DNA of 64,000 nt, from NCBI GenBank assembly GCA_041671645.1, contig JBAZBD010000001.1, positions 735,234 through 799,233 on the forward strand. The letters are read 5' to 3'. This document shows, in pieces, positions 37,114 through 50,359 of this stretch; within the stretch, counting starts at the first letter, position 1, and each line of letters opens with the position of its first letter. Made by a program: the position numbers and the translations under genes. A model generated the notes under the pieces. The model was not told the origin of the DNA and did not search any database. It saw only the letters and a list, made by a program, of their open reading frames with translations. Source of the stretch: Patescibacteria group bacterium (GTDB lineage: Bacteria; Patescibacteriota; UBA1384; XYA2-FULL-43-10; 1-14-0-10-43-13).

Positions 37114-37224
37114 CTTCTTGGAGCCAAATATTGGTACCCCTAATGCACTTTGCTTCGAACCTTTATTAGCATGGCTCGACCAACTTATGCGTGCTTACGA
37201 TAAAGAAAAGGACGCTGGATGAAT

Positions 37225-37452
37225 TTATGATAATTCTGAAACATCCAGTGTTTTTATTTTTAACAGTTTCATGATCTTCGCCAGAATATCAAGCGAAGGT
37301 TTCACCTCTCCCCTTTCGAGCCGCGCATAATAATTAACAGTAACGCCAACAACCTCTGCAACTTCTGCTTGTGTAAGATTAGCTGATTCCCTGGCCTTTC
37401 TAAACTTATTGCCAAGATCATTCAAGTTTTTATTACTGTTCAAGTTAGTCAT
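37225..37452 (-). CDS. XRE-family HTH transcriptional regulator
   Basis: LTQAEVAEVVGVTVNYYARLERGE helix-turn-helix; 75 aa. Confidence 0.75.
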   Translation of the reverse strand: MTNLNSNKNLNDLGNKFRKARESANLTQAEVAEVVGVTVNYYARLERGEVKPSLDILAKIMKLLKIKTLDVSELS

Positions 37453-37523
37453 TCTGAGAACAATATACCAAAAATTATTTGAAATAACCAGCTCAAAAAT
37501 TATTAGACAACAAATGGAGGATC

Positions 37524-38234
37524 ATGTTTAACCAAAAACAAGCGTTTAGAGAATATCTAAACAGAAGGCAGGACGCAATTGATTCTGAGAAATCACAAGA
37601 TTCGCAAACCAGCAAATTGTTCAATGACAAAAATTTTTATAGCGCATTTACCAAAGACATGCTCAATGCTAAAAAGGAAGTCATCATTTACAGCCCATTT
37701 GTTGCCAAATTCAGAATGGACGAACTGAAACAAACTGTAGAAAAGCTTAGAAAAAGGAATATCGAAATATTCATTTTCACACGACCGACTGACGAGTATG
37801 AGACCATTTTCCAGCCTCAGATTCAGTGTGCACTTAAGCGTTATGGGGAGTTGGGGGTCAGTATTTTTTATCTTGGAGGCTCAATTCATGAAAAAGTAGC
37901 GATAATTGATCGAGAAATTCTTTGGGAAGGAAGCTTGAATATCCTCTCTCAGAGAGCAAGCAAGGAGATGATGAGAAGAACATCCAGCAAGGATTCGGCG
38001 ATGCAGATAATGTTTTATCTGGGATTAAACAAAAAGTTAGCAGAGAGCTACAAGCTTAAATACGAAAGACTGTATCGAAGTTTAATAGACAATTCAGGGC
38101 AAAATTTCAGGCAGAAAATGTACATATTTCTGTTTGGATTTACAATTGCCTTAGTGTTTTGGTGGACTCTCGTTAACTTCAGGGAGATTAAATTATTCTC
38201 CCCCTGGAATTGGCTCGTAATGAGCTTCATTTGA
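37524..38234 (+). CDS. Phospholipase D-like (single HKD motif) protein with C-terminal TM helix
   Basis: HEKVAIID...GSLN matches the H-x-K-x4-D...GSxN motif; 236 aa. Divergent from the XRE regulator. Confidence 0.65.
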   Translation: MFNQKQAFREYLNRRQDAIDSEKSQDSQTSKLFNDKNFYSAFTKDMLNAKKEVIIYSPFVAKFRMDELKQTVEKLRKRNIEIFIFTRPTDEYETIFQPQIQCALKRYGELGVSIFYLGGSIHEKVAIIDREILWEGSLNILSQRASKEMMRRTSSKDSAMQIMFYLGLNKKLAESYKLKYERLYRSLIDNSGQNFRQKMYIFLFGFTIALVFWWTLVNFREIKLFSPWNWLVMSFI

Positions 38235-40211
38235 GTTGCGTCCTGAAACAAATAGATTCTTCGGTTTAAATCCGTAAAGCGCCAAACTGCTGAAGATCAC
38301 TATAATTGAAACTCCGACGTCGGCGAAGATGGCAAAAGCCAAGTTGCTCAACCCTGATAAGGCTAGGATTACAAACAGGAACTTAATTGCCAATGCCAGG
38401 CCGATATTAAATTTGATTGTTTGTCTCACTTTTTTGCCAAGCACTATTAAAAATGGAATCTTGCCAATATTATCATCCATGATTGCAATATCGGCGTTTT
38501 CTATCGCCATATCCGAGCCGACTGACCCAAGTGTGATGCCGACATTTGAAATAGCCAGAGAAGGAGCGTCATTGATGCCATCACCAACCATGGCAACACG
38601 AGAGTATTCCTTTTTCAAATTTTGGACTTGTGTAACTTTATTTTCAGGAAGAAGAGATGAATATACTTTACTAAGGCCAATATTGCTAGCAACATATCGG
38701 GCCGTACTTTCATTATCTCCAGTTAGCATAATAGGAGTAATACCCGCTTGTTTTAGGAAGGAGATTAGTGGCTTGCTCTCGTTCCTGATTGTATCCTCGA
38801 TAGCGATAACGCCCTCGATATGGGTTTTATTGGCTACAATAATTGTAGTCTTGCCTTCTTTTTCAAATTTATCAACTGCTTTTCTTGTCTGTTCGTCAAT
38901 CTTAATTTCATTCTCAACAAATGATAAATTGCCCAGGCAAGATGTTGTCTTGCAAATTGAACAATGGCCGATAATACCCTTGCCGGAAAGCGATTTGAAA
39001 TCAGTAGCTGGCAGCACAGTCACGCCCAGCTCTCGCGCTTTGTCCAGTATTCCTTTAGCCAATGGATGACCCGAATGAATCTCTAGTCCTGCAGCGCAAG
39101 CAAGAATCTCCTTCTCACTGTATCCATTGAATGTCACAATATCAGACACTCGAATTTCGCCAGTCGTCAAAGTTCTAGTCTTATCAAAGGCAATGGCTTT
39201 GATTTTACCGAGCTCCTCTAAATATTTTCCACCTTTAATAAGTATCCCCTGCCTGTTGGCGTTACCAAGAGCAGAGAACACAGCAATCGGAGTAGAGATA
39301 ACCAAGGCACAAGGGCAAGAGATAACAAGCAAACTCAAGGCCTGAATAAACCAAGTATTGAAAGGTAATCCTAGAAAAACCACCGGAATTATTACGATAA
39401 GAGATGCAATAACCATAACTGCCGGAGTATAATATTTTGCAAATCTCTCAATAAACTCCTGGGATTTTGACTTGTTCTTATTTGCACTTGCTGTCATCTC
39501 GATAATTTTGGCGATAGTTGAATCACCTGATTTTTTCATTACCTTTATTTCTAGCGAACCATCAATATTGACTGTGCCGGCATAAACCAGATCATTCATT
39601 CCTTTGGTTTCCGGGATAGGCTCGCCCGTAATGGTTGCTTCGTCGACCAGAGAACTGCCAGATACAATAACACCGTCAAGCGCAATAGTATCACCTGGTT
39701 TAACGATAATAATATCGCCAATATTAATATCCTCGATCGGAGTTTTATCTTCATCGCCCCTTTTTAAAACTGTTTTAGGAGTTTTTTGAATTAATTCCTC
39801 AAGAGCTTTTTTGCTTTTCTTGATTCCAATTTCTTCAAGAGTCTCAGCCAGGGCAAAGAGAACGACAATTGTGACCGCTTCTTCGAATTGTCCAAGATAG
39901 AGAGCGCCAAAAACTGCGATGGTCATCAATAGATTGATACTTGAGAATTTTAGCTTCAAAAGACTTTTGATGCCGCTGACGAAGACATCTCTACCAAAAA
40001 CAATTAGAAGAATGATAGAAATCGGCAGCTCGATAAACAAAGGTATTTTTACTGATAGTAAGGACAAGATCTCCATCGGCACTATGATGGCAATCGAAAT
40101 TAAAAGCAATACGAACTTTTTGTTTTTCCAGATAGAATTGATTTCTTGTGCCTCTTGTTTTCTTGAGCAACAGTCATCGTTGCAATAATTATCGTTTTTT
40201 TGTTTTTGCAT
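38193..40211 (-). CDS. Heavy-metal translocating P1B-type ATPase
   Basis: CPC in TM6 (SCPCALV); phosphorylation site FDKTRTLT; TGDN; GDGINDAP hinge; N-terminal Cys cluster CNDDCC. Confidence 0.85.
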   Translation of the reverse strand: MQKQKNDNYCNDDCCSRKQEAQEINSIWKNKKFVLLLISIAIIVPMEILSLLSVKIPLFIELPISIILLIVFGRDVFVSGIKSLLKLKFSSINLLMTIAVFGALYLGQFEEAVTIVVLFALAETLEEIGIKKSKKALEELIQKTPKTVLKRGDEDKTPIEDINIGDIIIVKPGDTIALDGVIVSGSSLVDEATITGEPIPETKGMNDLVYAGTVNIDGSLEIKVMKKSGDSTIAKIIEMTASANKNKSKSQEFIERFAKYYTPAVMVIASLIVIIPVVFLGLPFNTWFIQALSLLVISCPCALVISTPIAVFSALGNANRQGILIKGGKYLEELGKIKAIAFDKTRTLTTGEIRVSDIVTFNGYSEKEILACAAGLEIHSGHPLAKGILDKARELGVTVLPATDFKSLSGKGIIGHCSICKTTSCLGNLSFVENEIKIDEQTRKAVDKFEKEGKTTIIVANKTHIEGVIAIEDTIRNESKPLISFLKQAGITPIMLTGDNESTARYVASNIGLSKVYSSLLPENKVTQVQNLKKEYSRVAMVGDGINDAPSLAISNVGITLGSVGSDMAIENADIAIMDDNIGKIPFLIVLGKKVRQTIKFNIGLALAIKFLFVILALSGLSNLAFAIFADVGVSIIVIFSSLALYGFKPKNLFVSGRNSNEAHYEPIPGGE

Positions 40212-40221
40212 GCCTCACTCC

Positions 40222-40584
40222 TTATTTCTCAAGACAGTTGTGTTGGACAGCCTTGTCTATTTTAGTTTTTGGTTTTCTTTTAAGTAGTTTATTTAACTTA
40301 GCTTCATTTTCTTTCAATACACCCCTGTTTAGATGGTGAACACTAAAATATCCACGCTTATGCTCGCTTAAAACTCCAGCTTCCTTGAGTTTGCCAAGGT
40401 GATGGGAAACCAAATTTTGGGGGAGATTTAAAGCTTCGCTAATATCACAGACACATTTACAATCATGCGAAAGTAGCGTCAGAATCTTTAATCTGTTCGG
40501 ATCAGCGATAACTTTGAGAAACTTACTGATATTCTCAATCTGACTCAAATCTTCGGTATTTAAGTAATCCATTATTTTATCCAT
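40222..40584 (-). CDS. ArsR/SmtB family metalloregulator
   Basis: HTH with a metal-sensing Cys pair (CKCVCDISEAL) and LVSHHL; directly upstream of the P-type ATPase. Confidence 0.8.
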   Translation of the reverse strand: MDKIMDYLNTEDLSQIENISKFLKVIADPNRLKILTLLSHDCKCVCDISEALNLPQNLVSHHLGKLKEAGVLSEHKRGYFSVHHLNRGVLKENEAKLNKLLKRKPKTKIDKAVQHNCLEK

Positions 40585-40670
40585 ATCAATTTATATTGAT
40601 ATAAATATATCACAAAGAAAGAACTTGCGCAACAATATTATGAGTTTTTGGTTGGGATAGCTTGAATTAG

Positions 40671-40967
40671 TTAATCCCCAAAATCAAAGAGATCACCCAG
40701 AAATCCGCTTCTTTTCTTCTTCTTGTAGCTATCATGACCTTTGTAATATTCATTTTCTTTGCGGCGGTCTTCATGCTGATGGTCATATGATACTCTAGGA
40801 GTCTCGTTCTGCTGGATTCTATTAGATGAATCCTGACTTGATCTCTCTATGATCTTATCTAGCTCTCCTCGATCAAGCCATACTCCGCGGCACTGAGGAC
40901 AATAGTCAATTTCAATCCCCTGGCGATCGCTCATTACTAAATCTATGTTGCATAATGGACATTTCAT
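40671..40967 (-). CDS. Zinc-ribbon protein (CPLC...CPQCRGVWLDRGEL type)
   Basis: Two CxxC pairs and a GxWLDxGEL motif; charged His-rich tail. Confidence 0.55.
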   Translation of the reverse strand: MKCPLCNIDLVMSDRQGIEIDYCPQCRGVWLDRGELDKIIERSSQDSSNRIQQNETPRVSYDHQHEDRRKENEYYKGHDSYKKKKRSGFLGDLFDFGD

Positions 40968-41049
40968 TTTTTAATCCTTTTTAAGTTAATTAGATTGGTT
41001 GCGGTAATATTCTTTATTGTTCTACATTTCTATCCTTTCGACTCAACAT

Positions 41050-41970
41050 TTACTTGACCAACACACCTTTATAGACACGGTAAGGTTTTGGGCCAACCAA
41101 CGTTTTCCCGTTGATAAAAACTGTTGGAGTACCATAAAGATCAGCGTCGCTCATTTGCTCTTTTTGCTTTTCTAACTCTTTCTTCGTTGAATCGCTTGTT
41201 GCACACTCATTAATTGTTTGAGGATTCATCTGGTACTTGGTTGTAAGCTCGTTAAGATATTCAGGCTTGAGCAAATCTTCCTTTTTTGATGCAAACAACT
41301 TGTCATTCAAATCCCAAAATTTGTCAGGATAGTTTTTGCTCGCGCAGTAAGAAAAATTTGTCAAAGTATCATTTGGATCTTTGGTCGGGAAATGAATAAA
41401 GGTTAAACTGCTTTTTTCTTTCTCAACTAGCTTCTTTACGATAGGGTAAGATTTTCGACTATAGTCACAGTTGTAGCAGCCTATAAAAACGATGTTATTT
41501 TTACTCTCTATTTTCTTTGAAGGGAATGCCGTGAGATCAATCTTGCTTTGATCTATACTCTCTGCGGTGTGTTCCTTAGCACTACACGTTTTGTTTTCAG
41601 CGGAAATTTGGTTATTGCCTCCAGTAGGATCAAAGACACAAAATCCGCTTTTGTTTAGGCCATTGCAACTGCCGTATTTGTAATAATTATAGCCGCCCTT
41701 AACAACATAAAATGTGCTTGCTATCATTAACATGAATAAGACAAATGAGAACAGCTCAAAATAGCGGTTTAAAATTTTAGCCATGAACGCAGATTTTGTT
41801 AGCATTCCACCAACTAATTTGCCTTTAACTTTTTCTTTAAAGCCTGTGTTGCAAGGCCTAAAAGTAGCTTTTCTAAAAACACAATCTAGTGCCTCCCTTG
41901 CCAGCTGGCGGTGAGTTGCACTAAAAAGTCCGAGTATAGAAAATACGATTAATGCGATTATACATGCCAT
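41050..41970 (-). CDS. Membrane thiol-disulfide oxidoreductase: N-terminal polytopic domain (VKOR/DsbB-like, tentative) fused to a thioredoxin-fold CxxC domain
   Basis: N-terminal TM helices with loop Cys pairs. C-terminal IGCYNCDY CxxC plus thioredoxin-like ...YGTPTVFING. In an operon with SufS-like and DsbA-like genes. Confidence 0.45.
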   Translation of the reverse strand: MACIIALIVFSILGLFSATHRQLAREALDCVFRKATFRPCNTGFKEKVKGKLVGGMLTKSAFMAKILNRYFELFSFVLFMLMIASTFYVVKGGYNYYKYGSCNGLNKSGFCVFDPTGGNNQISAENKTCSAKEHTAESIDQSKIDLTAFPSKKIESKNNIVFIGCYNCDYSRKSYPIVKKLVEKEKSSLTFIHFPTKDPNDTLTNFSYCASKNYPDKFWDLNDKLFASKKEDLLKPEYLNELTTKYQMNPQTINECATSDSTKKELEKQKEQMSDADLYGTPTVFINGKTLVGPKPYRVYKGVLVK

Positions 41971-43175
41971 TACAAAATCCTTACTATATTTTTAATTTGT
42001 TTAATTAAGGTTTCGGCTTCTGCTAAGGTGTTATAGAAGTATGTTGAAATTCTAATCACGCCTTTGATTTCCTTGTCTGAGAACCACGGATGGACACACA
42101 GCTGACCTGAGCGAATAGCAATATTTCCAGAATTCTCTAATAGTTGAGCGATATAATGCGGATCAGCGCCCTCGATATAAAAGGAGATGATTCCGCTTCT
42201 TTTTTTTGGCTCGGCGGGTCCGATCAACCGTAGGTTTGGCAAATTTATTAAATTCTCTGTTATATATTTATTTAAGATAAGATTTTGCTTCTCGATGTTT
42301 TCCATTCCAATAGAATTTATATAATCAAGCGCCGCCCCAAACCCAAAAATTCCTGAGTAATTCTGTATGCCCGCTTCAAATCTCTGTGGCGACGGGAGAA
42401 GCTCATAATCCGTATAACTTGCGCTGTTTACCGTTCCACCTCCGATCACAGATGAGACAAAGTTTTCAATAATCTCTTTTTTAATATACAGAATACCTAT
42501 TCCTGTCGGCCCCAGCATTTTGTGAGCCGAAAATACTAGAAAATCTACACCTAGTTTTTTGACATCGATTCTTCGGTGGGTAGCTGCCTGTGTAGCGTCT
42601 AGTAATACCAGTGAATTATATTTATGAGCCAGTTCAACTATTTCTTTGACTGGATAGGTTACTCCATCCAGGTTCGAAGTATATACCAAGGAAACAAGTT
42701 TAATGTTTCCTTGGTTTTTTTCTAGTTGTGATTTATAGTCTCCCAAGTCAAATTCACCATTGCTAGCCGTTTTGGTGATCAGATGCTGAATTTTGCTATG
42801 TTTTGCTAATCTTACCCACGGCAGAAAATTGGAGTTGTGCTCTTTATCAGAGGTTAAGACGATATCGCCAGCTTTGAAGTTAAAAGAGTTAGCAACAAAA
42901 TTTATGCCCTCGGTCGCATTTTTTACAAATATCACCTCATTAGAATTATTTGCATTTATAAACTTCGCGGTCTTTTGTCTTACTTTTTCACACTTTTCGC
43001 CCACGACCTGACTCAGCTTGTAGCTGCCTCGATCGCAGAAAGGAAATTCCCTATAAAATTGTGAGACTGCCTCAATTACCGAGTTGGGCTTCAGAGTTGT
43101 GCAAGCATTATCAAAATAGATAAGCTTTGAATCTGACAGTATCGGAAAATCTTGGCGAGTCTTTTCTAGGTTCAT
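41970..43175 (-). CDS. Cysteine desulfurase (class V aminotransferase, SufS/NifS family)
   Basis: PLP-lysine motif FSAHKMLGPTGIG; catalytic Cys region GQLCVHP; 401 aa. Confidence 0.8.
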   Translation of the reverse strand: MNLEKTRQDFPILSDSKLIYFDNACTTLKPNSVIEAVSQFYREFPFCDRGSYKLSQVVGEKCEKVRQKTAKFINANNSNEVIFVKNATEGINFVANSFNFKAGDIVLTSDKEHNSNFLPWVRLAKHSKIQHLITKTASNGEFDLGDYKSQLEKNQGNIKLVSLVYTSNLDGVTYPVKEIVELAHKYNSLVLLDATQAATHRRIDVKKLGVDFLVFSAHKMLGPTGIGILYIKKEIIENFVSSVIGGGTVNSASYTDYELLPSPQRFEAGIQNYSGIFGFGAALDYINSIGMENIEKQNLILNKYITENLINLPNLRLIGPAEPKKRSGIISFYIEGADPHYIAQLLENSGNIAIRSGQLCVHPWFSDKEIKGVIRISTYFYNTLAEAETLIKQIKNIVRIL

Positions 43176-43903
43176 TTTACGTCCTCAAGCAGCGGATTTA
43201 TCTTTGCCTTCATTTGCTCTAGAGATAGAGCGCCTGCAAGCTTTTCAGTCTTTCCTTTGCTATCAATAATAAATGTGCCAGGAGTGCCTGTAACTCCGAC
43301 TTTTTCGCCAGATTCAAGATCAGATTTTACCTTATCCGCAAATTTACCGTCCTTTAGCGCCTTTTTGAATTTATCCATATCAAGGGACAATTCTTCAGCA
43401 TATCTGATTAAATCTTGTTCATTCAGCCCTGTTCCATCTGCCTGAGAATTTGCCGCTAGCTTATCGCTGTACTCCCAAAACTTGCTATGCTCGCCGGCTG
43501 CTTCCGTGGCTTCGGCTGCTTTTTGGGCGGTTTTATGAAAATCAAGTGGGAAATGGCGGTAAACCCAGCGAACTTTGCCCGGATAAAGATCAATAACTTG
43601 CTTCATTGTCTTATGAAATTTTACGCAATACGGGCATTGAAAATCTGAGTATTCTACGAGTGTAATCGGAGAATTTATTTCCCCATAGATCTGGTCTTTA
43701 TCAGTAATCGTAAGTTTTGGTCCGGTCTCATTAACTGATTGCAAAGAATCATTTTCTGCATTTTTAGCATTTGACGATCCATTCTTAGAGATTAAAACGA
43801 CTGCTCCTACAATGACAACAACGATAATTAACAAGAATATATAGATAGCATTATTATTTTTTGAATTCACAAAAGCTCCTTTGTTATTAAGTAATTTAAA
43901 CAA
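43172..43903 (-). CDS. DsbA-like thiol:disulfide oxidoreductase (CPYC), membrane-anchored
   Basis: EYSDFQCPYCVKF active site; paralog of 23991..24650. Confidence 0.7.
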   Translation of the reverse strand: MFKLLNNKGAFVNSKNNNAIYIFLLIIVVVIVGAVVLISKNGSSNAKNAENDSLQSVNETGPKLTITDKDQIYGEINSPITLVEYSDFQCPYCVKFHKTMKQVIDLYPGKVRWVYRHFPLDFHKTAQKAAEATEAAGEHSKFWEYSDKLAANSQADGTGLNEQDLIRYAEELSLDMDKFKKALKDGKFADKVKSDLESGEKVGVTGTPGTFIIDSKGKTEKLAGALSLEQMKAKINPLLEDVK

Positions 43904-43911
43904 ATAGAGAT

Positions 43912-44313
43912 TTAGAGGTAGAGTTTTGGCCTTAACCTGCCGTCAGAAAATGCTTGGAGCAAATAATCGAACAATTTTTGAAAGAAATATTTTCTTGTGT
44001 CTTTAATGTGACTTGGTTTAAGCGTAATGATTATATAAATGGCAGTTAACGGTGAGATTATTGACAGAAAAGATAGTGAGAAAATATCTTTAAAGCTAAC
44101 GTTCCTTAAATTAAATGCTTTTTCACTAAGGTGCTGGCTTAAACTTTCCCCGAGGCAAACTGACCGGCCGCATTGTTGGCTACCGTTATCAGTACAAAGT
44201 CCAGGCACACAATGACTAAGAGATAGAAACAAAAAAATGACCACAGCCAAAACGGCAAGCACCATTAGATATTTAGCAAAACTATCTTTAATAAGTGTGA
44301 TCAACATAACCAT
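43912..44313 (-). CDS. Cys-rich small membrane protein
   Basis: 133 aa, two TM segments; CVPGLC and CGRSVC pairs. Confidence 0.45.
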   Translation of the reverse strand: MVMLITLIKDSFAKYLMVLAVLAVVIFLFLSLSHCVPGLCTDNGSQQCGRSVCLGESLSQHLSEKAFNLRNVSFKDIFSLSFLSIISPLTAIYIIITLKPSHIKDTRKYFFQKLFDYLLQAFSDGRLRPKLYL

Positions 44314-44349
44314 ATTCTATTGTTTTTGGGAGTGCTTGGCAACCAGTAC

Positions 44350-44400: not shown

Positions 44401-44410
44401 GACGAAGCGG

Positions 44411-44524
44411 TCATCTGGCCGCTTTGGGGCTGCAAACGGCTACCAGGAACGCCAGCGCTGGTATTGCCAAGTTGCAGCCGATGAGTGTGGCACTGAACGA
44501 GTTGAGCGTGATCCATTCAATCAT
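44411..44524 (-). CDS. Candidate small hydrophobic peptide, 37 aa (MIEWITLNSFSATLIGCNLAIPALAFLVAVCSPKAAR)
   Basis: Own translation. RBS AGGAAAGGGG 6 nt upstream of ATG. Locally GC-rich (~58%) in an AT-rich region. Immediately followed by the strong terminator. Confidence 0.35.
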   Translation of the reverse strand: MIEWITLNSFSATLIGCNLAIPALAFLVAVCSPKAAR

Positions 44525-44608
44525 CGCCTTGCCCCTTTCCTATAGCGTTAGCTTGATATTAGCACTAGTCGCAAGCAATTAAAAGCGTGAGTACGTTACA
44601 AATTAATT

Positions 44609-44782
44609 TTAGAACTGCTCGATCTTTAATTTTTCATACTCTGCACGAGAAAAAAGTTTACCACATTCTATGTTTCTACACTTGGCAAAAAGACCGGCAC
44701 CTTTACTCAGAGTTGGTGAACTCGAGATGATGCCGGTTTTCGTTACAAACTCGCCACATTTATCGCAAACTTTATATTTCAT
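44609..44782 (-). CDS. Small zinc-ribbon protein, 57 aa (CDKC...CRNIEC)
   Basis: Own translation: MKYKVCDKCGEFVTKTGIISSSPTLSKGAGLFAKCRNIECGKLFSRAEYEKLKIEQF. Confidence 0.35.
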   Translation of the reverse strand: MKYKVCDKCGEFVTKTGIISSSPTLSKGAGLFAKCRNIECGKLFSRAEYEKLKIEQF

Positions 44783-44858
44783 TATTATTTTTTAACAAAT
44801 TAATTCGATTGGCTTATAAAAAATCCCTCTACCAAGAATCCTTTGAGAGAAAAGAACT

Positions 44859-44938
44859 CTTGACAGAGGGATTCGAACCCTCAAGCCTTTCGGCAACTGT
44901 TTTCTAGACAGCAGCGTATACCGTTCCGCCATGCCACC
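44859..44938 (-). pseudogene. Class II tRNA-Ser-like gene (anticodon AGA by position) with a non-pairing 3' acceptor strand; possibly a disrupted tRNA or att-site remnant
   Basis: The minus strand gives a D-arm, an anticodon arm (GCTGT CTAGAAA ACAGT), a long variable arm (GCCGAAAGGC) and a perfect T-arm (GAGGG TTCGAAT CCCTC). The 3' strand TGTCAAG cannot pair with the 5' GGTGGCA, and there is no CCA. Confidence 0.45.
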
Positions 44939-44987
44939 ATTGCACTTAATTTTATATCAGATTAAGCCTAGATTCAAGGATAAAAAC

Positions 44988-47123
44988 TTATTTTTTCTTA
45001 AATAGCTTTTCAATCTCTGTAAAAATCTTTTCAAAATTATCCTCGGCCGTTTTTGAGTATTTAAAGCCATCCCAAACAAGCTTATCGTGAATGTACTGTG
45101 CGACTCCAACCTTATCAAATGATATTCCTGGTTTTTGGAATAACTCAGGGTTCTCTTTGGCTAGCGAAGATTCTATGTGTTTTATTAATTTAACTTTACC
45201 ATCAAAACCAGTTACGAAATTTTTTGCGAACTTTACAGTTGGATAGTTTTGACCATAATAAGCAATGACTTCATCAAGATACTCTGTTGGATCAAATAGC
45301 TCTTCGATGTCTTTTAAATCTGCATGACCGCTGATTGCGGACAGATCTTTCGTGAGCTCTTTCATATTTTGTAGACCATATTCGTCAAGAGTTTTTTTAA
45401 TCTGATCTGAATCGTTCTTTGAGTCAGGAATTGCAACACATTTTACATTATTCTTGGTTTTACGAGTTAGAAATAGGCAGTAAAGCGGAATATTATCTTT
45501 GCCATCAGCGGGCACAAAAGTTCTTGTTTCGTCAGCATAACTCTGCAACCATTTTAACCTAACACCACCTTTCTCTTGGAAATACCTAAGCCATCCAATT
45601 AGAAAGAAATAATCCGATATTCCTTCGATCACAATATGCTCCTTGCCCGTCAGAAGCTCTTCGCCAATAAATAAACCTAACGCCTGTCGAAGGGGAGAAA
45701 CTAGCTGCGAATCTCTCCAGAACCTCTGGTGAAGTGTACTCCCGTACACTTTCTGGCCTTTGACTTTTTCTATGTTTTCAACGACATACAATCTTTCTAA
45801 TCTTTGCCACTGCATCATCATTGGCTGATGAGTAGTGTAAATAATCTGTGAATTTTTCGTATTAACTTCAAAAAAGTTTTTAAGGTCAATTTGAGAGGAG
45901 GCGTGAAGGTTTTGTCCTGGCTCATCAAAAAGCCAAATTATCTTCTTGTTTTCCTTATTAGCGATAGCTAATTTGACGAAAAATTTAAGATACCATTTTT
46001 CACCTTCACTAAGGTTATTTAGCTCTATCTGTGCGCCCTGCTTGGTAAAAAAGAAAAAGCACAAATGGCTATCGTGTCTTTCAATGCGATATATTAGGTT
46101 GTGAGTCAGCCAATACTTATTTATTTCATCAGTGAGCGTCTCTGATGACTTATTTTGCAAACCAGTTAGTGCCCTCCCGATCTTAGAAGAAAAGTCCGTT
46201 GCGGAAACTCCTGATAGTTTTAGTAGATCAAAGAGAAAAGGGTGCTTAGTATCGTCTAACAAGTCTTTTATTGGTGCTGTTCCCTCGACCGCATAATCAA
46301 GATCAAGCAAGTTTATGGATAATGTTTTAAAGATTTCTTTAATCGCTAAGGAAATATCTCGGTTTATGACCTCACAGTAATCGCTATAAAGAATATCGAC
46401 TGAAGACTTTTCTATTTCATGATTTCCAATTAATACAATAAAGTTTTGTAGCTCGGTTCTTAAATTTGTATATGAATCTAAATCATCAGCTACAATGGCG
46501 AGTTTTATTTTGGCCTCAATATCGGACTTGGCTTGTTCTAGTTTTGAAATAATATCTTGAGTTGATTGTTCGGCTGTATTTATCTCAGGCGGCTGTTCTG
46601 CTGTAGGTGTTTGCGGATCAGCGATGGCCTTCTCTGGAACAACTATCATCAACTGCTTTATTTCTAGACCCAAATCCTTCGCAATTACTTTCAAATTTTT
46701 CACTCTCTCGTCCTTGTAATCAAGCGGTGTGATCTCCTGTGAAACCTCACCACCTTCACTTTTTTGAACGCTTAGCTCGAACCCTTTAACTCCCGTGAAA
46801 CCTTTTTCTTTGAGCTTATCCTCATCTTCTTTCTCGAGAGAAAACTCAGCACTTAGGTTAATAACTTTATTTTTTGTAATTTCAGAATCTTCGTTTAAGG
46901 AATCATCGACCAGGAATTTATTATTTTTTAAAGAATATAACGCATATAATATATTTGATTTACCGGAACCATTTTGTCCGATCAAGCAGTTAATCTTGTC
47001 GTCATGAAATACTTGATCGCCTATTTCTTTGATTGATTTAAAGTTTTTAACGGAGAACTTTTTTAATTTCATTTTTGTCCTTTTGTAGATAATGGTTTGA
47101 GCTAAATTGCTTGCTTTTAGCAT
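44988..47123 (-). CDS. OLD-family nuclease (N-terminal ABC-type ATPase plus C-terminal Toprim)
   Basis: P-loop GQNGSGKSN; ABC signature-like LSEGEKW; Walker B LFDEPGQNLH; Toprim IVIEGISD and a downstream acidic DSKNDSD; 711 aa. No UvrD-like partner adjacent. Confidence 0.7.
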   Translation of the reverse strand: MLKASNLAQTIIYKRTKMKLKKFSVKNFKSIKEIGDQVFHDDKINCLIGQNGSGKSNILYALYSLKNNKFLVDDSLNEDSEITKNKVINLSAEFSLEKEDEDKLKEKGFTGVKGFELSVQKSEGGEVSQEITPLDYKDERVKNLKVIAKDLGLEIKQLMIVVPEKAIADPQTPTAEQPPEINTAEQSTQDIISKLEQAKSDIEAKIKLAIVADDLDSYTNLRTELQNFIVLIGNHEIEKSSVDILYSDYCEVINRDISLAIKEIFKTLSINLLDLDYAVEGTAPIKDLLDDTKHPFLFDLLKLSGVSATDFSSKIGRALTGLQNKSSETLTDEINKYWLTHNLIYRIERHDSHLCFFFFTKQGAQIELNNLSEGEKWYLKFFVKLAIANKENKKIIWLFDEPGQNLHASSQIDLKNFFEVNTKNSQIIYTTHQPMMMQWQRLERLYVVENIEKVKGQKVYGSTLHQRFWRDSQLVSPLRQALGLFIGEELLTGKEHIVIEGISDYFFLIGWLRYFQEKGGVRLKWLQSYADETRTFVPADGKDNIPLYCLFLTRKTKNNVKCVAIPDSKNDSDQIKKTLDEYGLQNMKELTKDLSAISGHADLKDIEELFDPTEYLDEVIAYYGQNYPTVKFAKNFVTGFDGKVKLIKHIESSLAKENPELFQKPGISFDKVGVAQYIHDKLVWDGFKYSKTAEDNFEKIFTEIEKLFKKK

Positions 47124-47386
47124 ATCATTGTAGTCTTACCTGTCAACATACTGTAACTGTTATACTGAGGTAACTGTTTACTTGCTTCTACTTTTTGTGT
47201 TAAAACTGTCTCAATTGGTATCTGATTTTGTCCCATTCATTTGTCCCAGTCATCTGGGGCAAAAAATGAGGGCTTTTGAAGCTAAATCTGAAAATATTTT
47301 AGCACCTATCCTATACACATATAATGGTTAGGTAGGTTAGGGGAAAAGTGTAAATACTCATCTCAAAAATAATCAATCAAAAAAAC

Positions 47387-48187
47387 ATGACAATACAAAC
47401 AATAACAACTAAACAAGAAGAAATACTAACTCTCATATACAAATACAAATTCCTAAACAGAATCCAAATACAATCATTTCTAGAACATAAAGATCACAGA
47501 AGAATAAACAGCTGGCTTAAAGACCTAACAGAAAAAGAATGCATAAAAAGAATTTGGTCAAACGGCTATGTCGAAAGAACAAGACCTTCTATCTATTATC
47601 TAGCATCCAGTAGCCTTGCGTATTTATCAAAACGATATTTCATCACTCCCCGATATTTTCCGAAAATAGCAGAAGAAGCAGTGATTGGTCCATCGGAACA
47701 CTACATTCTTGATTCCCTTTTACTTGCTGATCTTAGTTTAGGTTTTCTAGATAAGAATAAGGAAGCGGCGAATACTTCAGTTATTACCAAAACCGAATTG
47801 GCTGAACCATATTCGGAGTATAGCTTTCTGGCAGAGGCCAAGATTAAGCCGGAACTTCTTTTTGCTACGAGAGCCAGTAGCAAAAGTATGACAAAGTATT
47901 ATCTATTAGAGGTTATTGAGAGATATGCTTCATTCATCTTGGTTCGAAACAAAATCAAAAGATACTTTGATCTGTATTATTCCAATGACTGGGAGGATAA
48001 CATAGAGGGTGAATTCCCAACAGTACTTTTTGTCTGTCATTCAATGTACTTACTAATTTATGCCAAGAGGTATGCCCGAAGGCTCAGAGCTGATGAATAT
48101 CCGGATGCTGATTTCACAATTCAGTTTGCGCTACTAGAAAACCTCAAATCAAATGAATCAGGCAGTGATATTTGGGAGAAAGCTTAG
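47387..48187 (+). CDS. Replication-relaxation family-like protein (winged-helix N-terminus), plasmid/ICE-type
   Basis: N-terminal ...TKQEEILTLIYKYKFLNRIQIQSFL... pattern typical of the Replic_Relax family; 266 aa. Confidence 0.45.
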   Translation: MTIQTITTKQEEILTLIYKYKFLNRIQIQSFLEHKDHRRINSWLKDLTEKECIKRIWSNGYVERTRPSIYYLASSSLAYLSKRYFITPRYFPKIAEEAVIGPSEHYILDSLLLADLSLGFLDKNKEAANTSVITKTELAEPYSEYSFLAEAKIKPELLFATRASSKSMTKYYLLEVIERYASFILVRNKIKRYFDLYYSNDWEDNIEGEFPTVLFVCHSMYLLIYAKRYARRLRADEYPDADFTIQFALLENLKSNESGSDIWEKA

Positions 48188-48342
48188 ACTGAAATAATAT
48201 CTAGTGTTATTAACGATCAAAGTATTCAAAGATAGCTCAACCTGTTAGCGCAGGTGTATTTATTTAAAATTACCTAATTATTAGACACCTATTTATCATC
48301 TCTAGGACTTGTTTATTGGTTGATAAAGTAGCCCTATATTCT

Positions 48343-48375
48343 CTTGACACTATCCATGTGTGTGATAGTATATAA
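48343..48375 (+). promoter_or_regulatory. Promoter (TTGACA-17-AGTATA/TATATA) overlapping a palindrome CTATCcatgtgtgtGATAG upstream of the 48408 ORF and recombinase
   Basis: Consensus -35, extended TGTG-n -10 region, and an inverted repeat that could act as an operator. Confidence 0.4.
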
Positions 48376-48407
48376 CTATACATTACAGAGATAGTTAGGA
48401 GGGTGAG

Positions 48408-48755
48408 ATGGTGCCATGTCAAACACAACTTTTTAATCCTATTGAGACAGTTTCGACTAGCAATAAAATTGCGGCTGAATTTGTATCCACTATCTTGGTT
48501 AATCCCTCGCGTGAAACAGTTGAAAAGCGTCCTCGCCAGAATATAACTCTTGACTCTATATTCCCTACCCACCAAGAGGAAGCCAAAATAACAAAGGCAA
48601 GACGTATTTTAGGAGAAGTCGGCAGTAATCTCTCAGATGAAGAACTGGAAATATACCTGACCAAATTTGAATTCTTACTTGACACTTGGTTGGATACTTT
48701 TGAAAAACAAACATTCAATGGGAAAACATTAGGCCAGTTATTAAGAGAGGGGTAA
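48408..48755 (+). CDS. Hypothetical protein immediately upstream of the recombinase (possible accessory/directionality factor)
   Basis: Strong RBS AGGAGGG; stop 2 nt before the recombinase start. Confidence 0.55.
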   Translation: MVPCQTQLFNPIETVSTSNKIAAEFVSTILVNPSRETVEKRPRQNITLDSIFPTHQEEAKITKARRILGEVGSNLSDEELEIYLTKFEFLLDTWLDTFEKQTFNGKTLGQLLREG

Positions 48756-48757
48756 AA

Positions 48758-50359
48758 ATGGATCAGTTTGGCTTTAAAGAAAAAGAAACAAAAAATGCAG
48801 TAATCTACTTGCGCGTCTCAACTGAGGAGCAGGTCGAAAACTATTCTCTGGATACACAAGAAGAAATTTGTTCAAAAGAGGCAAGCAAGCGAGGCCTCAC
48901 AATTTATCATACATTTCGAGAGGAAGGCCGATCAGCCAAGACCATCACCGGACGGCCCGTACTTATTGAAATGTTGGAATTTTGCCGTACACACAAGAAA
49001 GAGATCAATGCCATTATTATTTATCGGCTTGATCGAATCTCACGCCAAACGGCGGACTATTTAGCTATCCGAAAGAAGCTGGCCGAATGTGACATCAAAC
49101 TGATTTCTGCCACAGAACCGACCGGCAATAGTCCGACTGAAAAGTTCGTTGAAACAATGCTGGCTGGCTTTGCTCAAATGGATAATGATGTCAGAAGCGA
49201 GCGAACTAAAAACGGCATGAAGGCAAGATTCATGGCTGGCTTGCCCAGTGGTTATGCTCCGATCGGCTATACCAACCAAAACGGCTATGCAATTAAAGAT
49301 CATGAAACTTTCGAAACAATGAAAGAGGGCTGGGATCTGATGGCGACTGGCGATAAAAGCCTAAAGGAGATGGCCGTGATATTGAGCGCAAAAGGAATCT
49401 ATGGTGGTACCAGAAACGGCAGAAGGTGTATTCTTCGCCACCAACAACTTAGTCGAATCTTTAGAAACAAATTTTACACTGGCAAAATTGTTTCCAAAAA
49501 GTATGGCCATGAGATTCAGGGACAGCATCCCCCAATGGTTTCTGAGGAAAAATTCTACCGTGTTCAGGCAATTTTGGATGGCCGTAACACGAGAATTGCT
49601 TTACCATTAGCCAAGAGAAACCGTGATAATCCCAACTTCCCACTGAGAAGGATTATTAAATGCAAACATTGCGGTGGCTCGTTTACTGGAGCTAAAAGTC
49701 ACGGACATGGCGGAGAATACCATTACTATTTCTGTCAGAAACGCTGTGAAAAAGAAAACGTTTCAGATAAAAAAGCTGAGGCTGCGATGGAAAAAGAGTT
49801 AGGAAGGATTAATCTGAAAGAGAAAGCAGTTTCACTCTTCAACGCCTTTTTACGAAGGAAATATTATGAGCGGATTTCCACGCTACAACAAAGACGAAAA
49901 GAGGCAGATACAGAGCTTCAGAAGCTTTACACCTTCCGCCAAGCTCTGATCGAGAAAAATATCGCAGGGGTCTATTCTGACGAGGTATACAAAGAACAAA
50001 ACAAGCTTGTCGAGAAGAAGATCCAGGCAGCAGTGGCTGCCAAAGACGACGAAGTATTAGAGAAATATAATCTTGAAAAGATCACAGAGTTTGTCAAAGA
50101 TAAACTCGGAAACCTTGTTCAAACTTATTTGGATTCTGAACTTCAGGAGAAGCGTACGCTCTTAGGTTCGATATTCCCCTCTGGATTGGTCTGGGACAAA
50201 AATGACTATTCCAACCCACAAATTAGTGAGTTCTACAGCCAAATATTGGCTTTTGGCAACGATGGGTGCTCATTTGGTACCCGCGGCAGGAATCGGACCT
50301 GCGACCTAAACGTTAGGAGTGTTTCGCTCTATCCACTGAGCTACGCGGGCAAATTGTAG
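48758..50359 (+). CDS. Large serine recombinase; 3' coding region contains an antisense tRNA-Arg(CCU)
   Basis: IYLRVSTEEQ catalytic-Ser motif; recombinase domain; CKHCGG...C zinc ribbon; 533 aa. The last ~30 codons are translated from the complement of tRNA 50275..50350. Confidence 0.85.
   Translation: MDQFGFKEKETKNAVIYLRVSTEEQVENYSLDTQEEICSKEASKRGLTIYHTFREEGRSAKTITGRPVLIEMLEFCRTHKKEINAIIIYRLDRISRQTADYLAIRKKLAECDIKLISATEPTGNSPTEKFVETMLAGFAQMDNDVRSERTKNGMKARFMAGLPSGYAPIGYTNQNGYAIKDHETFETMKEGWDLMATGDKSLKEMAVILSAKGIYGGTRNGRRCILRHQQLSRIFRNKFYTGKIVSKKYGHEIQGQHPPMVSEEKFYRVQAILDGRNTRIALPLAKRNRDNPNFPLRRIIKCKHCGGSFTGAKSHGHGGEYHYYFCQKRCEKENVSDKKAEAAMEKELGRINLKEKAVSLFNAFLRRKYYERISTLQQRRKEADTELQKLYTFRQALIEKNIAGVYSDEVYKEQNKLVEKKIQAAVAAKDDEVLEKYNLEKITEFVKDKLGNLVQTYLDSELQEKRTLLGSIFPSGLVWDKNDYSNPQISEFYSQILAFGNDGCSFGTRGRNRTCDLNVRSVSLYPLSYAGKL
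50275..50350 (-). tRNA. tRNA-Arg (anticodon CCU), embedded antisense in the recombinase 3' end
   Basis: GCCCGCG acceptor, D-arm GCTCAGTGGATAGAGC, anticodon loop CTCCTAA, T-arm GCAGGTCCGATTCCTGC, CCA encoded. One A:C mismatch closes the anticodon stem. The 3' half is identical to tRNA-Arg(UCU) at 63901. Confidence 0.75.

What the first reader, a model, noticed from the sequence alone, without database searches (positions are those of the whole stretch)
44859..50359. Second integrative element: tRNA-Ser-like gene with broken acceptor stem at one end, tRNA-Arg(CCU) swallowed by a serine recombinase gene at the other, OLD-family nuclease as cargo
Seen in sequence:
- One end is a class II tRNA-like sequence with intact D, anticodon, variable and T arms, but its 3' acceptor strand TGTCAAG cannot pair with the 5' GGTGGCA and it lacks CCA.
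- Cargo is an OLD-type ABC-ATPase plus Toprim nuclease (711 aa) and a replication-relaxation-like protein. A promoter/palindrome and a small ORF sit upstream of the recombinase.
- The other end is a large serine recombinase whose final ~95 nt contain a complete antisense tRNA-Arg(CCU).
Established knowledge: OLD-family nucleases (P2 Old; Gabija GajA) are antiphage effectors; class 1 OLD proteins act without a helicase partner.
Inference: this is a defense-carrying integrative/mobilisable element, and the integration event destroyed or replaced the 3' end of a tRNA-Ser.
Basis: partly seen in the sequence, partly recalled or inferred. Interest (0 to 1): 0.6.

Follow-up and report, generated by a model that had tools for sequence, protein, structure and literature searches.

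The report
Serine-recombinase island split at tRNA-Arg end
A 13.1-kb mobile island sits at the 3' end of tRNA-Arg(CCU); its serine recombinase gene carries its own attachment site, so insertion fuses the gene to the antisense tRNA, and the "broken tRNA-Ser" is a conserved tRNA-like gene inside the island, not an island end.

Summary
The sequence features are real, but the element borders and the tRNA-Ser story are wrong.

**Borders.** Four related Patescibacteria genomes have RNase Y–YmdB–HU–tRNA-Arg(CCU) directly followed by the homolog of window gene 36388-37113. The insert is therefore ~37,140–50,282 (13.1 kb, GC 0.38 vs 0.43–0.45), not 44,859–50,359.

**Recombinase.** A 9-nt core (TTGGTACCC) occurs at both junctions. 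Circularising the insert restores a 535-aa recombinase with a conserved C-terminal helix. A metagenome contig (L081) shows this unintegrated form.

**Family pattern.** In 66 of 73 related loci the recombinase ORF runs into an antisense tRNA in one fixed register. One locus targets tmRNA. The tRNA T-loop motif lies 5 bp nearer the core than its copy in the element arm. That is the known attB/attP geometry of large serine integrases.

**The "tRNA-Ser".** It lies inside the island. It has a Leu-type body and anticodon AGA. Its "3' acceptor strand" is half of a 24-bp terminator. It is 83/84 identical in two other contigs (neighbouring gene: 118/174). Its function is unknown.

**Cargo.** The OLD-type ATPase–Toprim call is supported.

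I found no description of tRNA-targeting serine integrases in the literature searched.

The parts
37131..37139 (+). attR core: TTGGTACCC, the remnant of the original tRNA-Arg 3' end (tRNA strand GGGTACCAA). Host DNA lies to its left.
   Evidence: The same 9 nt occur at 50274-50282. Empty sites in L001 and L002 end ...GGGGTACCA, followed ~50 nt later by the DUF881 gene.
37133..37222 (+). Displaced 3' end of the recombinase gene (P arm of attP). It encodes GTPNALCFEPLLAWLDQLMRAYDKEKDAG*.
   Evidence: Circularisation restores a 535-aa ORF. The tail is homologous to the C-terminus of P0003/L081 and to detached tails in about 20 loci.
37225..37452 (-). Xre-type HTH regulator; part of the element end module.
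   Evidence: Pfam HTH_3, 60 bits. The same gene lies directly after the recombinase in L081 and next to the PLD gene in L092-L095.
37524..38234 (+). PLD-like (PLDc_2) protein; part of the element end module.
   Evidence: Pfam PLDc_2. PADLOC MkoC/DrmC-like. 56% identical to the ORF after the HTH gene in L081.
38193..44313 (-). Extra cargo block: P-type metal ATPase, ArsR, TFIIB-type Zn ribbon, two thioredoxin/DsbA-like proteins, cysteine desulfurase and a 133-aa ORF.
   Evidence: Pfam hits. In L092-L095 the 57-aa Zn-ribbon gene abuts the PLD-HTH module directly, so this block is an addition.
44609..44782 (-). 57-aa Zn-ribbon ORF, a backbone gene of this element family.
   Evidence: 22 homolog clusters at 56-100% identity. 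In L092-L095 it lies directly beside the PLD-HTH module; in L089 seven called genes lie between them.
44822..44873 (-). 24-bp hairpin plus T-run (intrinsic terminator). It overlaps the T-stem 3' strand and the 'acceptor 3' strand' of the tRNA-like.
   Evidence: RNAfold MFE -53.6 kcal/mol, z -4.8. The terminator scan also finds it. The stem is kept in L085/L086.
44857..44939 (-). tRNA-like gene: Leu-type D and variable arms, anticodon AGA, only 5 acceptor pairs, no CCA.
   Evidence: It is 83/84 identical to L085/L086, against 118/174 for the adjacent coding sequence (Fisher p 2e-10).
44949..44977 (-). Promoter-like site (TTGAAT-17-TAAAAT) just upstream of the tRNA-like.
   Evidence: The -35 TTGA is kept in L085/L086. 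This is a consensus match only.
44988..47072 (-). Stand-alone OLD-family ABC ATPase + Toprim protein (694 aa from M18; the ORF extends to 47123).
47387..48187 (+). Replic_Relax (PF13814) protein, a candidate relaxase or replication initiator.
   Evidence: Pfam 26.6 bits against a cutoff of 25.3. PHROG replication-initiation families. 84-87% identical in L002, L013 and L027.
48408..48755 (+). 115-aa ORF always directly upstream of the recombinase; a candidate accessory or directionality factor.
   Evidence: tblastn finds it in 78 of 80 loci. It has no hit in Pfam, NCBIfam, PADLOC or PHROGs.
48758..50359 (+). Large serine recombinase, integrated (chimeric) form. The conserved part runs to codon 507 (...SFG); the last 26 codons are antisense tRNA-Arg.
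50274..50282 (+). attL core: TTGGTACCC (antisense of tRNA-Arg positions 69-76 plus 1 nt).
50275..50350 (-). Intact tRNA-Arg(CCU), the integration target (attB side).
   Evidence: ARAGORN. Rfam 62.6 bits, full length. Orthologous to the unoccupied tRNA-Arg(CCU) of L001, L002, L010 and L026.

Best explanation
Window ~37,140-50,282 is one 13.1-kb integrative, probably mobilisable or plasmid-like, element. It belongs to a family that is widespread in Patescibacteria.

**How it integrates (shown unless marked).**
- Its large serine recombinase inserted it at the extreme 3' end of tRNA-Arg(CCU), around the discriminator and CCA.
- The element's attachment site (attP) lies inside the 3' end of the recombinase gene itself.
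- In the free, circular form the gene encodes a 535-aa protein that ends in a conserved amphipathic helix (...FExLLxWLxxLM...).
- Integration moves those last ~27 codons 13 kb away, to 37,133-37,222.
- The truncated gene is fused to the antisense strand of the tRNA and reads on to the first chance stop. Here that stop lies beyond the whole tRNA.
- Inferred: target recognition uses the DNA of the tRNA T-loop (TCGAAC) as the zinc-ribbon-domain motif. The same motif sits 5 bp further out in the element arm. This is the established way large serine integrases tell attB from attP.

**What it carries.**
- A stand-alone OLD-family ATPase-Toprim nuclease, inferred to be an antiphage effector.
- A PLD-like protein with an HTH regulator.
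- A block of metal-resistance and thiol-redox genes.

**The 'tRNA-Ser with a broken acceptor stem'.** It is neither an attachment site nor a damaged host gene. It is an interior unit of promoter, tRNA-like sequence and terminator, under strong sequence constraint. It lies between the OLD gene and a backbone Zn-ribbon gene. Its role is unknown.
For: **Borders and the split gene**
- Empty-site synteny in four genomes.
- Low GC is confined to the insert.
- A 9-nt common core lies at both junctions.
- Circularisation restores an ORF whose tail matches P0003.
- L081 has small ORF, recombinase with native tail, HTH(-) and PLD(+) in that order, with no tRNA.
- Detached native tails lie 5.5-13.1 kb upstream of the recombinase in 12 reconstructed elements. 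W is invariant in 12/12 of them.

**Family pattern**
- 66 of 73 loci have an antisense tRNA under the recombinase 3' end, all in one register. The tRNAs cover 11 amino-acid identities.
- The read-through varies from 5.7 to 76 codons.
- One locus is in a tmRNA gene.
- TYSAAC lies at +20-25 in all 12 P arms, against +15-20 in the tRNA arms. This matches the 5-bp zinc-ribbon-motif shift described in PMC3783163.

**tRNA-like:**

**OLD call:**
Against: - No excised circle or empty site from this same organism was seen. The attP form is from a 73%-identical relative on a 3.2-kb contig.
- The exact crossover dinucleotide is not determined; GT (A73-C74) is only the intersection of the common cores.
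- The P' arm shows no clear mirror-image motif.
- The closest relative in the same tRNA site (L082, 84% identity) has no detectable detached tail on its contig.
- The Replic_Relax assignment is marginal.
- Mobility, recombinase activity and defence activity are all untested.
- The 38.2-44.3 kb block could be a separate, later insertion.
Confidence: 0.85

Rival explanations
1. First reader's model. A 5.5-kb element spans 44,859-50,359. One end is a tRNA-Ser whose 3' end was destroyed or replaced by integration. The other end is the recombinase over tRNA-Arg.
For: - The tRNA-like has mismatched outer acceptor pairs and no CCA.
- It lies 5.4 kb from the recombinase, within the size range of family elements.
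- DNA similarity between the window and L085/L086 starts exactly at the 5' end of the tRNA-like.
Against: - Empty sites place the host junction at 37.13 kb.
- The recombinase's own displaced tail is at 37,133-37,222 and nowhere else in the window.
- L081 joins the recombinase directly to the HTH-PLD module found at 37.2-38.2 kb.
- The family crossover is at the discriminator/CCA and leaves tRNAs intact.
- The tRNA-like body is Leu-type, not Ser-type.
- The 'broken' 3' strand is conserved as a terminator arm in L085/L086.
Confidence: 0.03
2. Composite or tandem island. The recombinase element proper is joined to an older or separately acquired block (38.2-44.3 kb metal/redox genes, or everything left of the tRNA-like). 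The 13.1 kb is then not one unit of transfer.
For: - In L092-L095 the Zn-ribbon gene abuts PLD-HTH, so the 6-kb metal/redox block is an addition.
- Cargo differs completely in L082 at the same site.
- The P-type ATPase has its closest match in an unrelated locus, L020.
Against: - There is only one recombinase of this family, one native tail and one pair of cores in the insert.
- The end module HTH-PLD-tail is the partner of this recombinase in L081.
- There is no second integrase, transposase or att remnant between 38 and 45 kb.
- GC is uniform, 0.36-0.39, across sub-blocks.

Cargo gain inside one element explains the data without a second mobile unit.
Confidence: 0.1
3. The tRNA-like is a decaying pseudo-tRNA with no function, picked up by chance from a tRNA-Leu/Ser gene of a former host.
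For: - Acceptor pairs 1:72 and 2:71 are broken and there is no CCA.
- The stable terminator competes with the T arm.
- Anticodon AGA is not a normal bacterial Ser anticodon (own knowledge).
- It is absent from other contexts of the Zn-ribbon gene and of the ATPase.
Against: - It shows 1 change in 84 nt against about 32% divergence in the adjacent coding sequence (Fisher p 2e-10).
- Its own promoter-like site and terminator are kept.
- Linkage to a diverged OLD-like ATPase (34% identity) is kept in L086.
Confidence: 0.25

Closest known systems
Phage-type large serine integrases (phiC31, Bxb1, A118/LI integrase; PMC3783163)
   Same: - Resolvase + recombinase + zinc-ribbon architecture with invariant Ser and four Cys.
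- Short common cores of 5-14 bp.
- A half-site motif 5 bp closer to the centre in attB than in attP.
- The integrase gene lies at the element end and faces outward.
   Different: - The target is the 3' end of tRNA or tmRNA genes, not a protein-coding gene. The mycobacterial Int-S sites reviewed in PMC8092301 all lie in ORFs.
- attP lies inside the integrase ORF.
- One family uses at least 11 tRNA identities.
- The hosts are Patescibacteria.
SSV1-type archaeal integrases, whose gene is partitioned on integration into a tRNA gene (own knowledge)
   Same: - attP lies inside the integrase gene.
- Integration into a tRNA gene splits the integrase gene between the two ends of the element.
   Different: - Those are tyrosine recombinases of archaeal viruses and plasmids, and the gene is cut well inside.
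- Here the enzyme is a bacterial serine recombinase.
- Only the last ~27 codons are displaced, and they are replaced by antisense-tRNA codons.
Streptococcal integrative and mobilizable elements with serine integrases (PMC5357655)
   Same: - Small elements with an outward-facing serine integrase at one end.
- A PF13814 (MobC-type) relaxase and no conjugation apparatus of their own.
- In one of them (IME_Spy2096_SNF2) the recombination site lies within the integrase gene.
   Different: - Those insert into and disrupt protein genes of ICEs, or rumA.
- They occur in Firmicutes.
- No tRNA targeting is reported.
Integration-dependent immunity of mycobacteriophages, where attP lies inside the repressor gene (mentioned in PMC8092301; details are own knowledge)
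   Same: Free and integrated forms of a gene encode proteins with different C-termini because attP lies inside the ORF.
   Different: - That system uses a tyrosine integrase.
- The split gene is the repressor.
- The functional consequence (loss of a degradation tag) has been demonstrated there. Here it is only inferred.
Class 1 OLD nucleases (P2 Old, Thermus OLD), Gabija GajA and PARIS AriA/AriB
   Same: - ABC ATPase head with invariant Walker A/B, signature and H-loop motifs, plus a C-terminal Toprim-like domain.
- No helicase partner next to it.
- Located on a mobile element.
   Different: - Only remote sequence similarity; the direct Pfam Toprim hit is sub-threshold.
- Activity and substrate are unknown.
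- It is followed by a conserved tRNA-like gene, which I did not find described for OLD systems.
tRNA-gene-targeting genomic islands with tyrosine integrases (own knowledge)
   Same: - Insertion at the 3' end of a tRNA gene that leaves the tRNA intact.
- The integrase gene lies next to the tRNA.
   Different: - The recombinase class differs.
- The common core is very short, instead of a repeat of tens of bp.
- The crossover is at the discriminator/CCA rather than in the anticodon or T loop.

Membership tests
Large serine recombinase (serine integrase) | N-terminal resolvase catalytic domain with a nucleophilic serine | tested here: met
   PF00239, 107 bits, residues 14-158. R19, V20 and S21 are invariant in 30 sequences.
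Large serine recombinase (serine integrase) | Recombinase domain followed by a zinc-ribbon domain with four Cys | tested here: met
   PF07508 47 bits and PF13408 32.5 bits. C302, C305, C326 and C330 are invariant.
Large serine recombinase (serine integrase) | Short att sites that share only a few bp around a 2-bp crossover, with the ZD motif 5 bp closer to the centre in attB than in attP | tested here: met
   Common cores of 5-14 nt in 12 elements. TYSAAC lies at +20-25 in P arms and at +15-20 in tRNA arms. The rule is from PMC3783163. Only one half-site of each att site was assessed, and the crossover dinucleotide is not mapped.
Large serine recombinase (serine integrase) | A separate recombination directionality factor for excision | not testable with these tools
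   The 115-aa ORF conserved directly upstream in 78 of 80 loci is a candidate. It matches no known family.
SSV1-type partitioned integrase | attP inside the integrase ORF, so that integration splits the gene | tested here: met
SSV1-type partitioned integrase | Tyrosine recombinase catalytic domain | tested here: not met
   The protein is a serine recombinase. It works alike in this one respect but is not a member.
Integrative and mobilizable element (IME) | Own integrase, and site-specific insertion with defined ends | tested here: met
Integrative and mobilizable element (IME) | Relaxase and oriT, without its own mating apparatus | tested here: inconclusive
   PF13814 scores 26.6 bits against a cutoff of 25.3. 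The PHROG hits are to replication-initiation families. No oriT was identified. No T4SS genes lie in the 13.1 kb.
OLD family nuclease, class 1 | N-terminal ABC ATPase with Walker A, signature, Walker B and H-loop motifs | tested here: met
   AAA_15 73.8 bits. G32-N40, S355/G357, D383/E384 and H415 are invariant in 28 homologs.
OLD family nuclease, class 1 | C-terminal Toprim domain with a conserved Glu and acidic residues | tested here: met
   The direct PF20469 hit reaches only E 0.096. hhalign to P0165 gives 99.7% probability across the C-terminal domain, and P0165 has PF20469 at 33.3 bits. E483 (VEG) and D550 are invariant. Foldseek top hits are 6p74 OLD and GajA over 634-780 columns.
OLD family nuclease, class 1 | No adjacent UvrD/GajB-type helicase | tested here: met
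   The neighbours are Replic_Relax (divergent) and the tRNA-like.
OLD family nuclease, class 1 | ATP-dependent nuclease activity and phage defence | not testable with these tools
Functional tRNA (for 44857-44939) | Cloverleaf with a 7-bp acceptor stem and a processable 3' end | tested here: not met
   Only 5 of 7 pairs form. Rfam aligns positions 3-68 only. The 3' strand lies inside a 24-bp terminator hairpin.
Functional tRNA (for 44857-44939) | Score above the Rfam tRNA gathering threshold, and sequence conservation | tested here: met
   37.1 bits against 29. 83/84 identical in L085/L086.

The most novel reading that the evidence does not exclude
The tRNA-like gene may be a dedicated, non-chargeable tRNA mimic that works with the adjacent OLD-family nuclease.

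**Background.** P2 Old is now known to cut tRNA anticodon stems at paired CNG motifs (positions 28-30 and 40-42) in tRNAs with A37 (PMC12445682).

**What fits.**
- The tRNA-like carries exactly C28-U29-G30 / C40-A41-G42 and A37. However, 12% of tRNAs in these loci do as well.
- It cannot form a full acceptor stem.
- It has its own promoter-like site.
- It is nearly invariant, while the neighbouring ATPase has diverged to 34% identity.

**Possible roles.**
- A decoy or RNA antitoxin that holds the nuclease in check until infection.
- A tRNA-shaped attenuator. Cloverleaf and terminator are mutually exclusive, so the fold would gate read-through into the Zn-ribbon gene.

**A second open reading.** The swap of the recombinase's C-terminal helix on integration may be a built-in directionality switch.
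Probability: 0.12. Interest if true: 0.8.

Novelty: new variant of a known kind. Interest (0 to 1): 0.6.

Why it matters
**The recombinase family**
- Large serine integrases are major genome-engineering tools. They are thought of as targeting protein-coding genes or intergenic sites.
- This family is large: more than 900 homolog clusters, and 123 confirmed hits in genomes of different species.
- It uses the universal tRNA 3' end and T-loop as its landing pad. Relatives have retargeted to at least 11 tRNA identities and to tmRNA.
- That offers a natural series for learning how serine-integrase specificity is reprogrammed.
- It also offers candidate broad-host-range integration sites.

**Annotation.** The family explains a recurrent artefact in Patescibacteria genomes: recombinase ORFs with junk C-termini that overlap tRNAs. 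It also gives a simple rule for delimiting their mobile islands.

**Regulation.** Splitting the integrase gene on integration suggests a regulatory logic so far known mainly from archaeal SSV-type elements and from mycobacteriophage immunity.

**The tRNA-like.** A conserved tRNA-like gene beside an OLD nuclease is a concrete lead, now that OLD proteins are known to be tRNA nucleases.

Tried and rejected
- **Repeat search over 35-52 kb.** It showed no att repeats. The real core is only 9 nt, below what that search can separate from chance.
- **Second copy of the tRNA-like T arm.** Only unrelated tRNAs matched.
- **Exact-sequence look-up of the chimeric recombinase.** Nothing on record.
- **Rfam at relaxed threshold.** No family other than tRNA matches the tRNA-like/terminator. 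The mir-2432 and Plastid-ycf2 hits are noise.
- **Tandem-element idea.** Rejected: there is one native tail and one family recombinase in the insert.
- **Functional coding overlap (the tRNA-encoded tail matters to the protein).** Rejected: the tails change with tRNA identity and end after 5.7-76 codons.
- **tRNA-like as an obligate partner of the ATPase.** Not supported: homologs at 62%, 41% and 39% identity (L083/L084, L087, L088) have no tRNA nearby.
- **tRNA-like as part of the Zn-ribbon backbone.** Not supported: it is absent in L089-L095.
- **Viral-contig scans for the tRNA-like.** No hits.
- **Detached tail in L082 (same site, 84% identical recombinase).** None found.
- **Literature searches for tRNA-targeting serine recombinases in Patescibacteria/CPR.** Nothing relevant. 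The library lacks most subscription journals.

Full report
**1. What is at the coordinates**

- ARAGORN finds nine tRNAs in the window. Two matter here: a "tRNA-Ser(AGA)" at 44857-44939(-) and tRNA-Arg(CCU) at 50275-50350(-).
- Rfam scores tRNA-Arg at 62.6 bits over the full length. It scores the Ser-like sequence at only 37.1 bits and aligns only model positions 3-68.
- In the Ser-like sequence, 5' GGTGGCA and 3' TGTCAAG pair at five inner positions. Positions 1:72 and 2:71 are G.G and G.A, and no CCA follows.
- ORF 48758-50359(+) is a large serine recombinase with Resolvase, Recombinase and Zn_ribbon_recom domains. Its last 85 nt are the reverse complement of the whole tRNA-Arg.
- ORF 44988-47123(-) has an ABC ATPase head. 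ORF 47387-48187(+) is a marginal Replic_Relax hit.

**2. The recombinase/tRNA overlap is a family property**

- The recombinase has more than 900 homologs at E<=1e-10, at 57-84% identity among the best 120. Those that carry a name are from Patescibacteria/CPR.
- Their C-termini stay conserved up to "...FG". After that they read like translated antisense tRNA (GIRT, GNRTP, LYPLSYG).
- I fetched 80 genomic loci. In 73 of them the ORF end is on the contig.
- In 66 of those 73, an antisense tRNA lies under the 3' end of the ORF.
- The register is always the same: the CCA end is read as xxT-GGN. Fifty-seven tRNAs have an encoded CCA and nine do not.
- The tRNAs are Arg, Glu, Met, Ala, Pro, Lys, Leu, Gly, Ser, Gln and Phe.
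- The ORF runs 5.7-76 codons into the tRNA, up to the first chance stop. It covers the whole tRNA in 24 cases, including the window.
- One further locus (L024) overlaps a tmRNA gene in the same way.

**3. True borders of the element**

- L001, L002, L010 and L026 carry the same host neighbourhood: RNase Y, YmdB, HU, tRNA-Arg(CCU).
- In these four, the tRNA is followed within ~50 nt by the homolog of window gene 36388-37113 (DUF881), and then by the homologs of 35747-36391 and 34724-35734.
- Everything between ~37.14 and 50.28 kb is therefore an insertion.
- The insert coincides with low GC: 0.382, against 0.434 and 0.453 in the flanks.
- On the tRNA strand, the far junction reads ...GCATTAG|GGGTACCAA|TATTTGG..., followed by the ATG of the host gene. 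GGGTACCAA is the 3' end of a tRNA-Arg.
- On the + strand, the same 9 nt (TTGGTACCC) occur at 37131-37139 and at 50274-50282.

**4. The recombinase gene is split by integration**

- Joining 50,282 to 37,140 gives a 535-aa ORF that ends ...SFGTPNALCFEPLLAWLDQLMRAYDKEKDAG*.
- This tail is homologous to the C-terminus of P0003 (LSFEHLMSWLNQLMCAFNQDDDG). P0003 is the only one of the 120 listed homologs without a tRNA-type tail.
- Its contig, L081, carries small ORF, recombinase, HTH(-) and the N-terminus of a PLD-like gene(+), and no tRNA.
- That is exactly the gene order produced by circularising the window insert. The HTH gene is at 37225-37452(-) and the PLD-like gene at 37524-38234(+), 56% identical to the L081 ORF.
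- Detached tails of the same kind lie on the recombinase strand, upstream of the recombinase, in about 20 other loci.
- For 12 elements I reconstructed attP and attB. Sizes are 5,470-13,143 bp and common cores are 5-14 nt.
- The intersection of these cores is GT, the antisense of A73-C74.
- The native tails share G[TAS]Lxx[LF]x[FY]EHLLxWLxxLMxAY, with W invariant in 12/12.
- This conservation extends beyond the ~25 bp expected for an att arm, so the helix is probably a real part of the protein in the free form (inference).

**5. Recognition geometry**

- In all 12 P arms the motif TYSAAC sits at +20 to +25 from the core.
- In the tRNA (B) arms the T-loop TCGAAC sits at +15 to +20.
- Rutherford et al. 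showed for LI integrase that the zinc-ribbon-domain motif of attB is shifted 5 bp toward the centre relative to attP (PMC3783163).
- The family thus appears to use the near-universal T-loop DNA as its ZD motif. This would explain how relatives have moved among many tRNAs and tmRNA (inference).
- The first 2-4 nt of each P arm copy the acceptor end of its own target.
- If the crossover is at GT, integration adds an encoded CCA to tRNAs that lacked one (L045, L051).

**6. The "tRNA-Ser-like" sequence**

- It lies 7.7 kb inside the element.
- Its D arm and variable arm are those of tRNA-Leu. It is 83% identical to the L017 tRNA-Leu(UAA). Only the anticodon arm resembles tRNA-Ser(UGA).
- The T-stem 3' strand and the supposed acceptor 3' strand form the 5' arm of a 24-bp hairpin followed by a T-run. 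MFE is -53.6 kcal/mol with z -4.8.
- Cloverleaf and terminator are therefore mutually exclusive.
- A promoter-like TTGAAT-17-TAAAAT lies just upstream.
- The single metagenome scan found two contigs (L085, L086) with the same sequence, the same anticodon AGA and the same mismatched end.
- Across the tRNA-like, 83 of 84 positions are identical. The adjacent Zn-ribbon coding sequence has 118 of 174 identical (Fisher p 2e-10).
- In L086 the upstream gene is again an ABC ATPase of this kind, but only 34% identical. The downstream gene is the same 57-aa Zn-ribbon ORF.
- The tRNA-like is absent next to closer and more distant ATPase homologs (L083/84, L087, L088).
- It is also absent next to Zn-ribbon homologs in other elements (L089-L095).
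- There the Zn-ribbon gene is coupled to varied defence cargo. In L092-L095 it directly abuts the PLD-HTH end module.

The tRNA-like is therefore a constrained RNA or DNA feature that travels with the OLD-type cassette. It is not an att remnant. Its function is unexplained.

**7. Cargo**

- The ATPase probably starts at M18. That gives 694 aa, the length of NCBI protein P0121, which is 100% identical over 98% of the 711-aa query and comes from a Patescibacteria MAG contig of 867,751 nt.
- Walker A, signature, Walker B and H-loop residues are invariant in 28 homologs, as are E483 (VEG) and D550.
- The AlphaFold model (pLDDT 84.6) matches Thermus OLD (6p74) and GajA best and over the full length. 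SMC/Rad50 heads match only the ATPase part.
- The direct Pfam Toprim hit is sub-threshold. Profile comparison to P0165, which has a significant OLD-like_TOPRIM domain, gives 99.7% probability through the C-terminal domain.
- No helicase gene is adjacent, so a class 1-like OLD assignment is supported.
- The rest of the cargo comprises a P-type metal ATPase, ArsR, two thioredoxin/DsbA-like proteins and a cysteine desulfurase. Relatives lack this block.

**8. Comparison with what is known**

- Serine-integrase IMEs with a PF13814 relaxase are known in streptococci. One of them has its att site inside the integrase gene (PMC5357655).
- The mycobacterial serine-integrase sites described in PMC8092301 all lie in ORFs, with 5-8 bp cores.
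- Partition of an integrase gene on insertion into a tRNA is the hallmark of archaeal SSV-type tyrosine integrases (own knowledge).
- Eight literature searches found no description of serine recombinases that target tRNA 3' ends, nor of this family in Patescibacteria. The library is incomplete.
- P2 Old has recently been shown to cut tRNA anticodon stems at paired CNG motifs in tRNAs with A37 (PMC12445682).
- The tRNA-like has C28UG30/C40AG42 and A37. So do 12% of tRNAs in these loci, so this is only a lead.

**9. Verdict**

- The locus is a 13.1-kb integrative element of a large, apparently undescribed tRNA-targeting serine-integrase family. Integration splits the integrase's own gene.
- I rate it a new variant of a known kind.
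- It carries one unexplained, strongly conserved tRNA-like gene beside an OLD-type nuclease.

Noticed in passing
window 681-2243 (-), within low-GC region 1-10,000: A second, distantly related large serine recombinase (26% identical over 478 aa) lies in another low-GC block (GC 0.33-0.39). ARAGORN finds no tRNA at its 3' end.
   Followed up: partly
L024 11518-11946 (-): A family member whose recombinase ORF (9992-11539) ends inside a tmRNA gene (Rfam 115 bits). The family therefore also uses the tRNA-like 3' end of tmRNA as a target.
   Followed up: partly
L045 and L051 junctions: The reconstructed empty sites lack an encoded CCA (tRNA strand ...ACTTT...ACAAT), while the occupied tRNAs end ...ACCA. 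Integration appears to supply an encoded CCA.
   Followed up: no
L002 + L027 (MAG JBAYVE01); L005 + L013 (CAZIYE01); L004 + L012 (JBAXQZ01): Single genomes carry two elements of this family. In two of the three pairs these sit in different tRNA genes: Glu and Pro in JBAYVE01, Met and Pro in JBAXQZ01. In CAZIYE01, L013 lies next to tRNA-Arg and L005 has no tRNA call. L002 and L027 have Replic_Relax genes 86-87% identical to the window's.
   Followed up: no
window 63825-63976 (+): The adjacent tRNA-Arg(TCG) and tRNA-Arg(TCT) at the window's right edge are occupied target sites in relatives (L001 and L010 in Arg-TCT; L013 next to Arg-TCG). Whatever follows Arg(TCT) lies beyond the window.
   Followed up: no
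L083 5813-7915 and neighbours: The 62%-identical homolog of the OLD-like ATPase sits inside an operon with an N6/N4 methyltransferase and a ResIII restriction-type enzyme. The same contig carries Replic_Relax and a TraG/TrwB-like coupling protein.
   Followed up: no
window 47026-47140 and 44600-44942 versus L085/L086: The window and L085/L086 are alignable at DNA level (73-79% identity) only at the promoter/N-terminus of the ATPase gene and from the tRNA-like onward. The ATPase body between them is only 34% identical in protein. This looks like cassette exchange between conserved flanks.
   Followed up: partly
window 44782-44822: Only ~40 nt separate the terminator T-run from the start of the 57-aa Zn-ribbon ORF. 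That leaves no room for a promoter. Its expression here would need read-through of the terminator that competes with the tRNA-like fold.
   Followed up: no
L013 11614-11623: In this locus the recombinase ORF stops 6 nt before the tRNA-Arg(TCG) instead of running into it. The element nevertheless has the usual core and a detached native tail (3149-3217).
   Followed up: no
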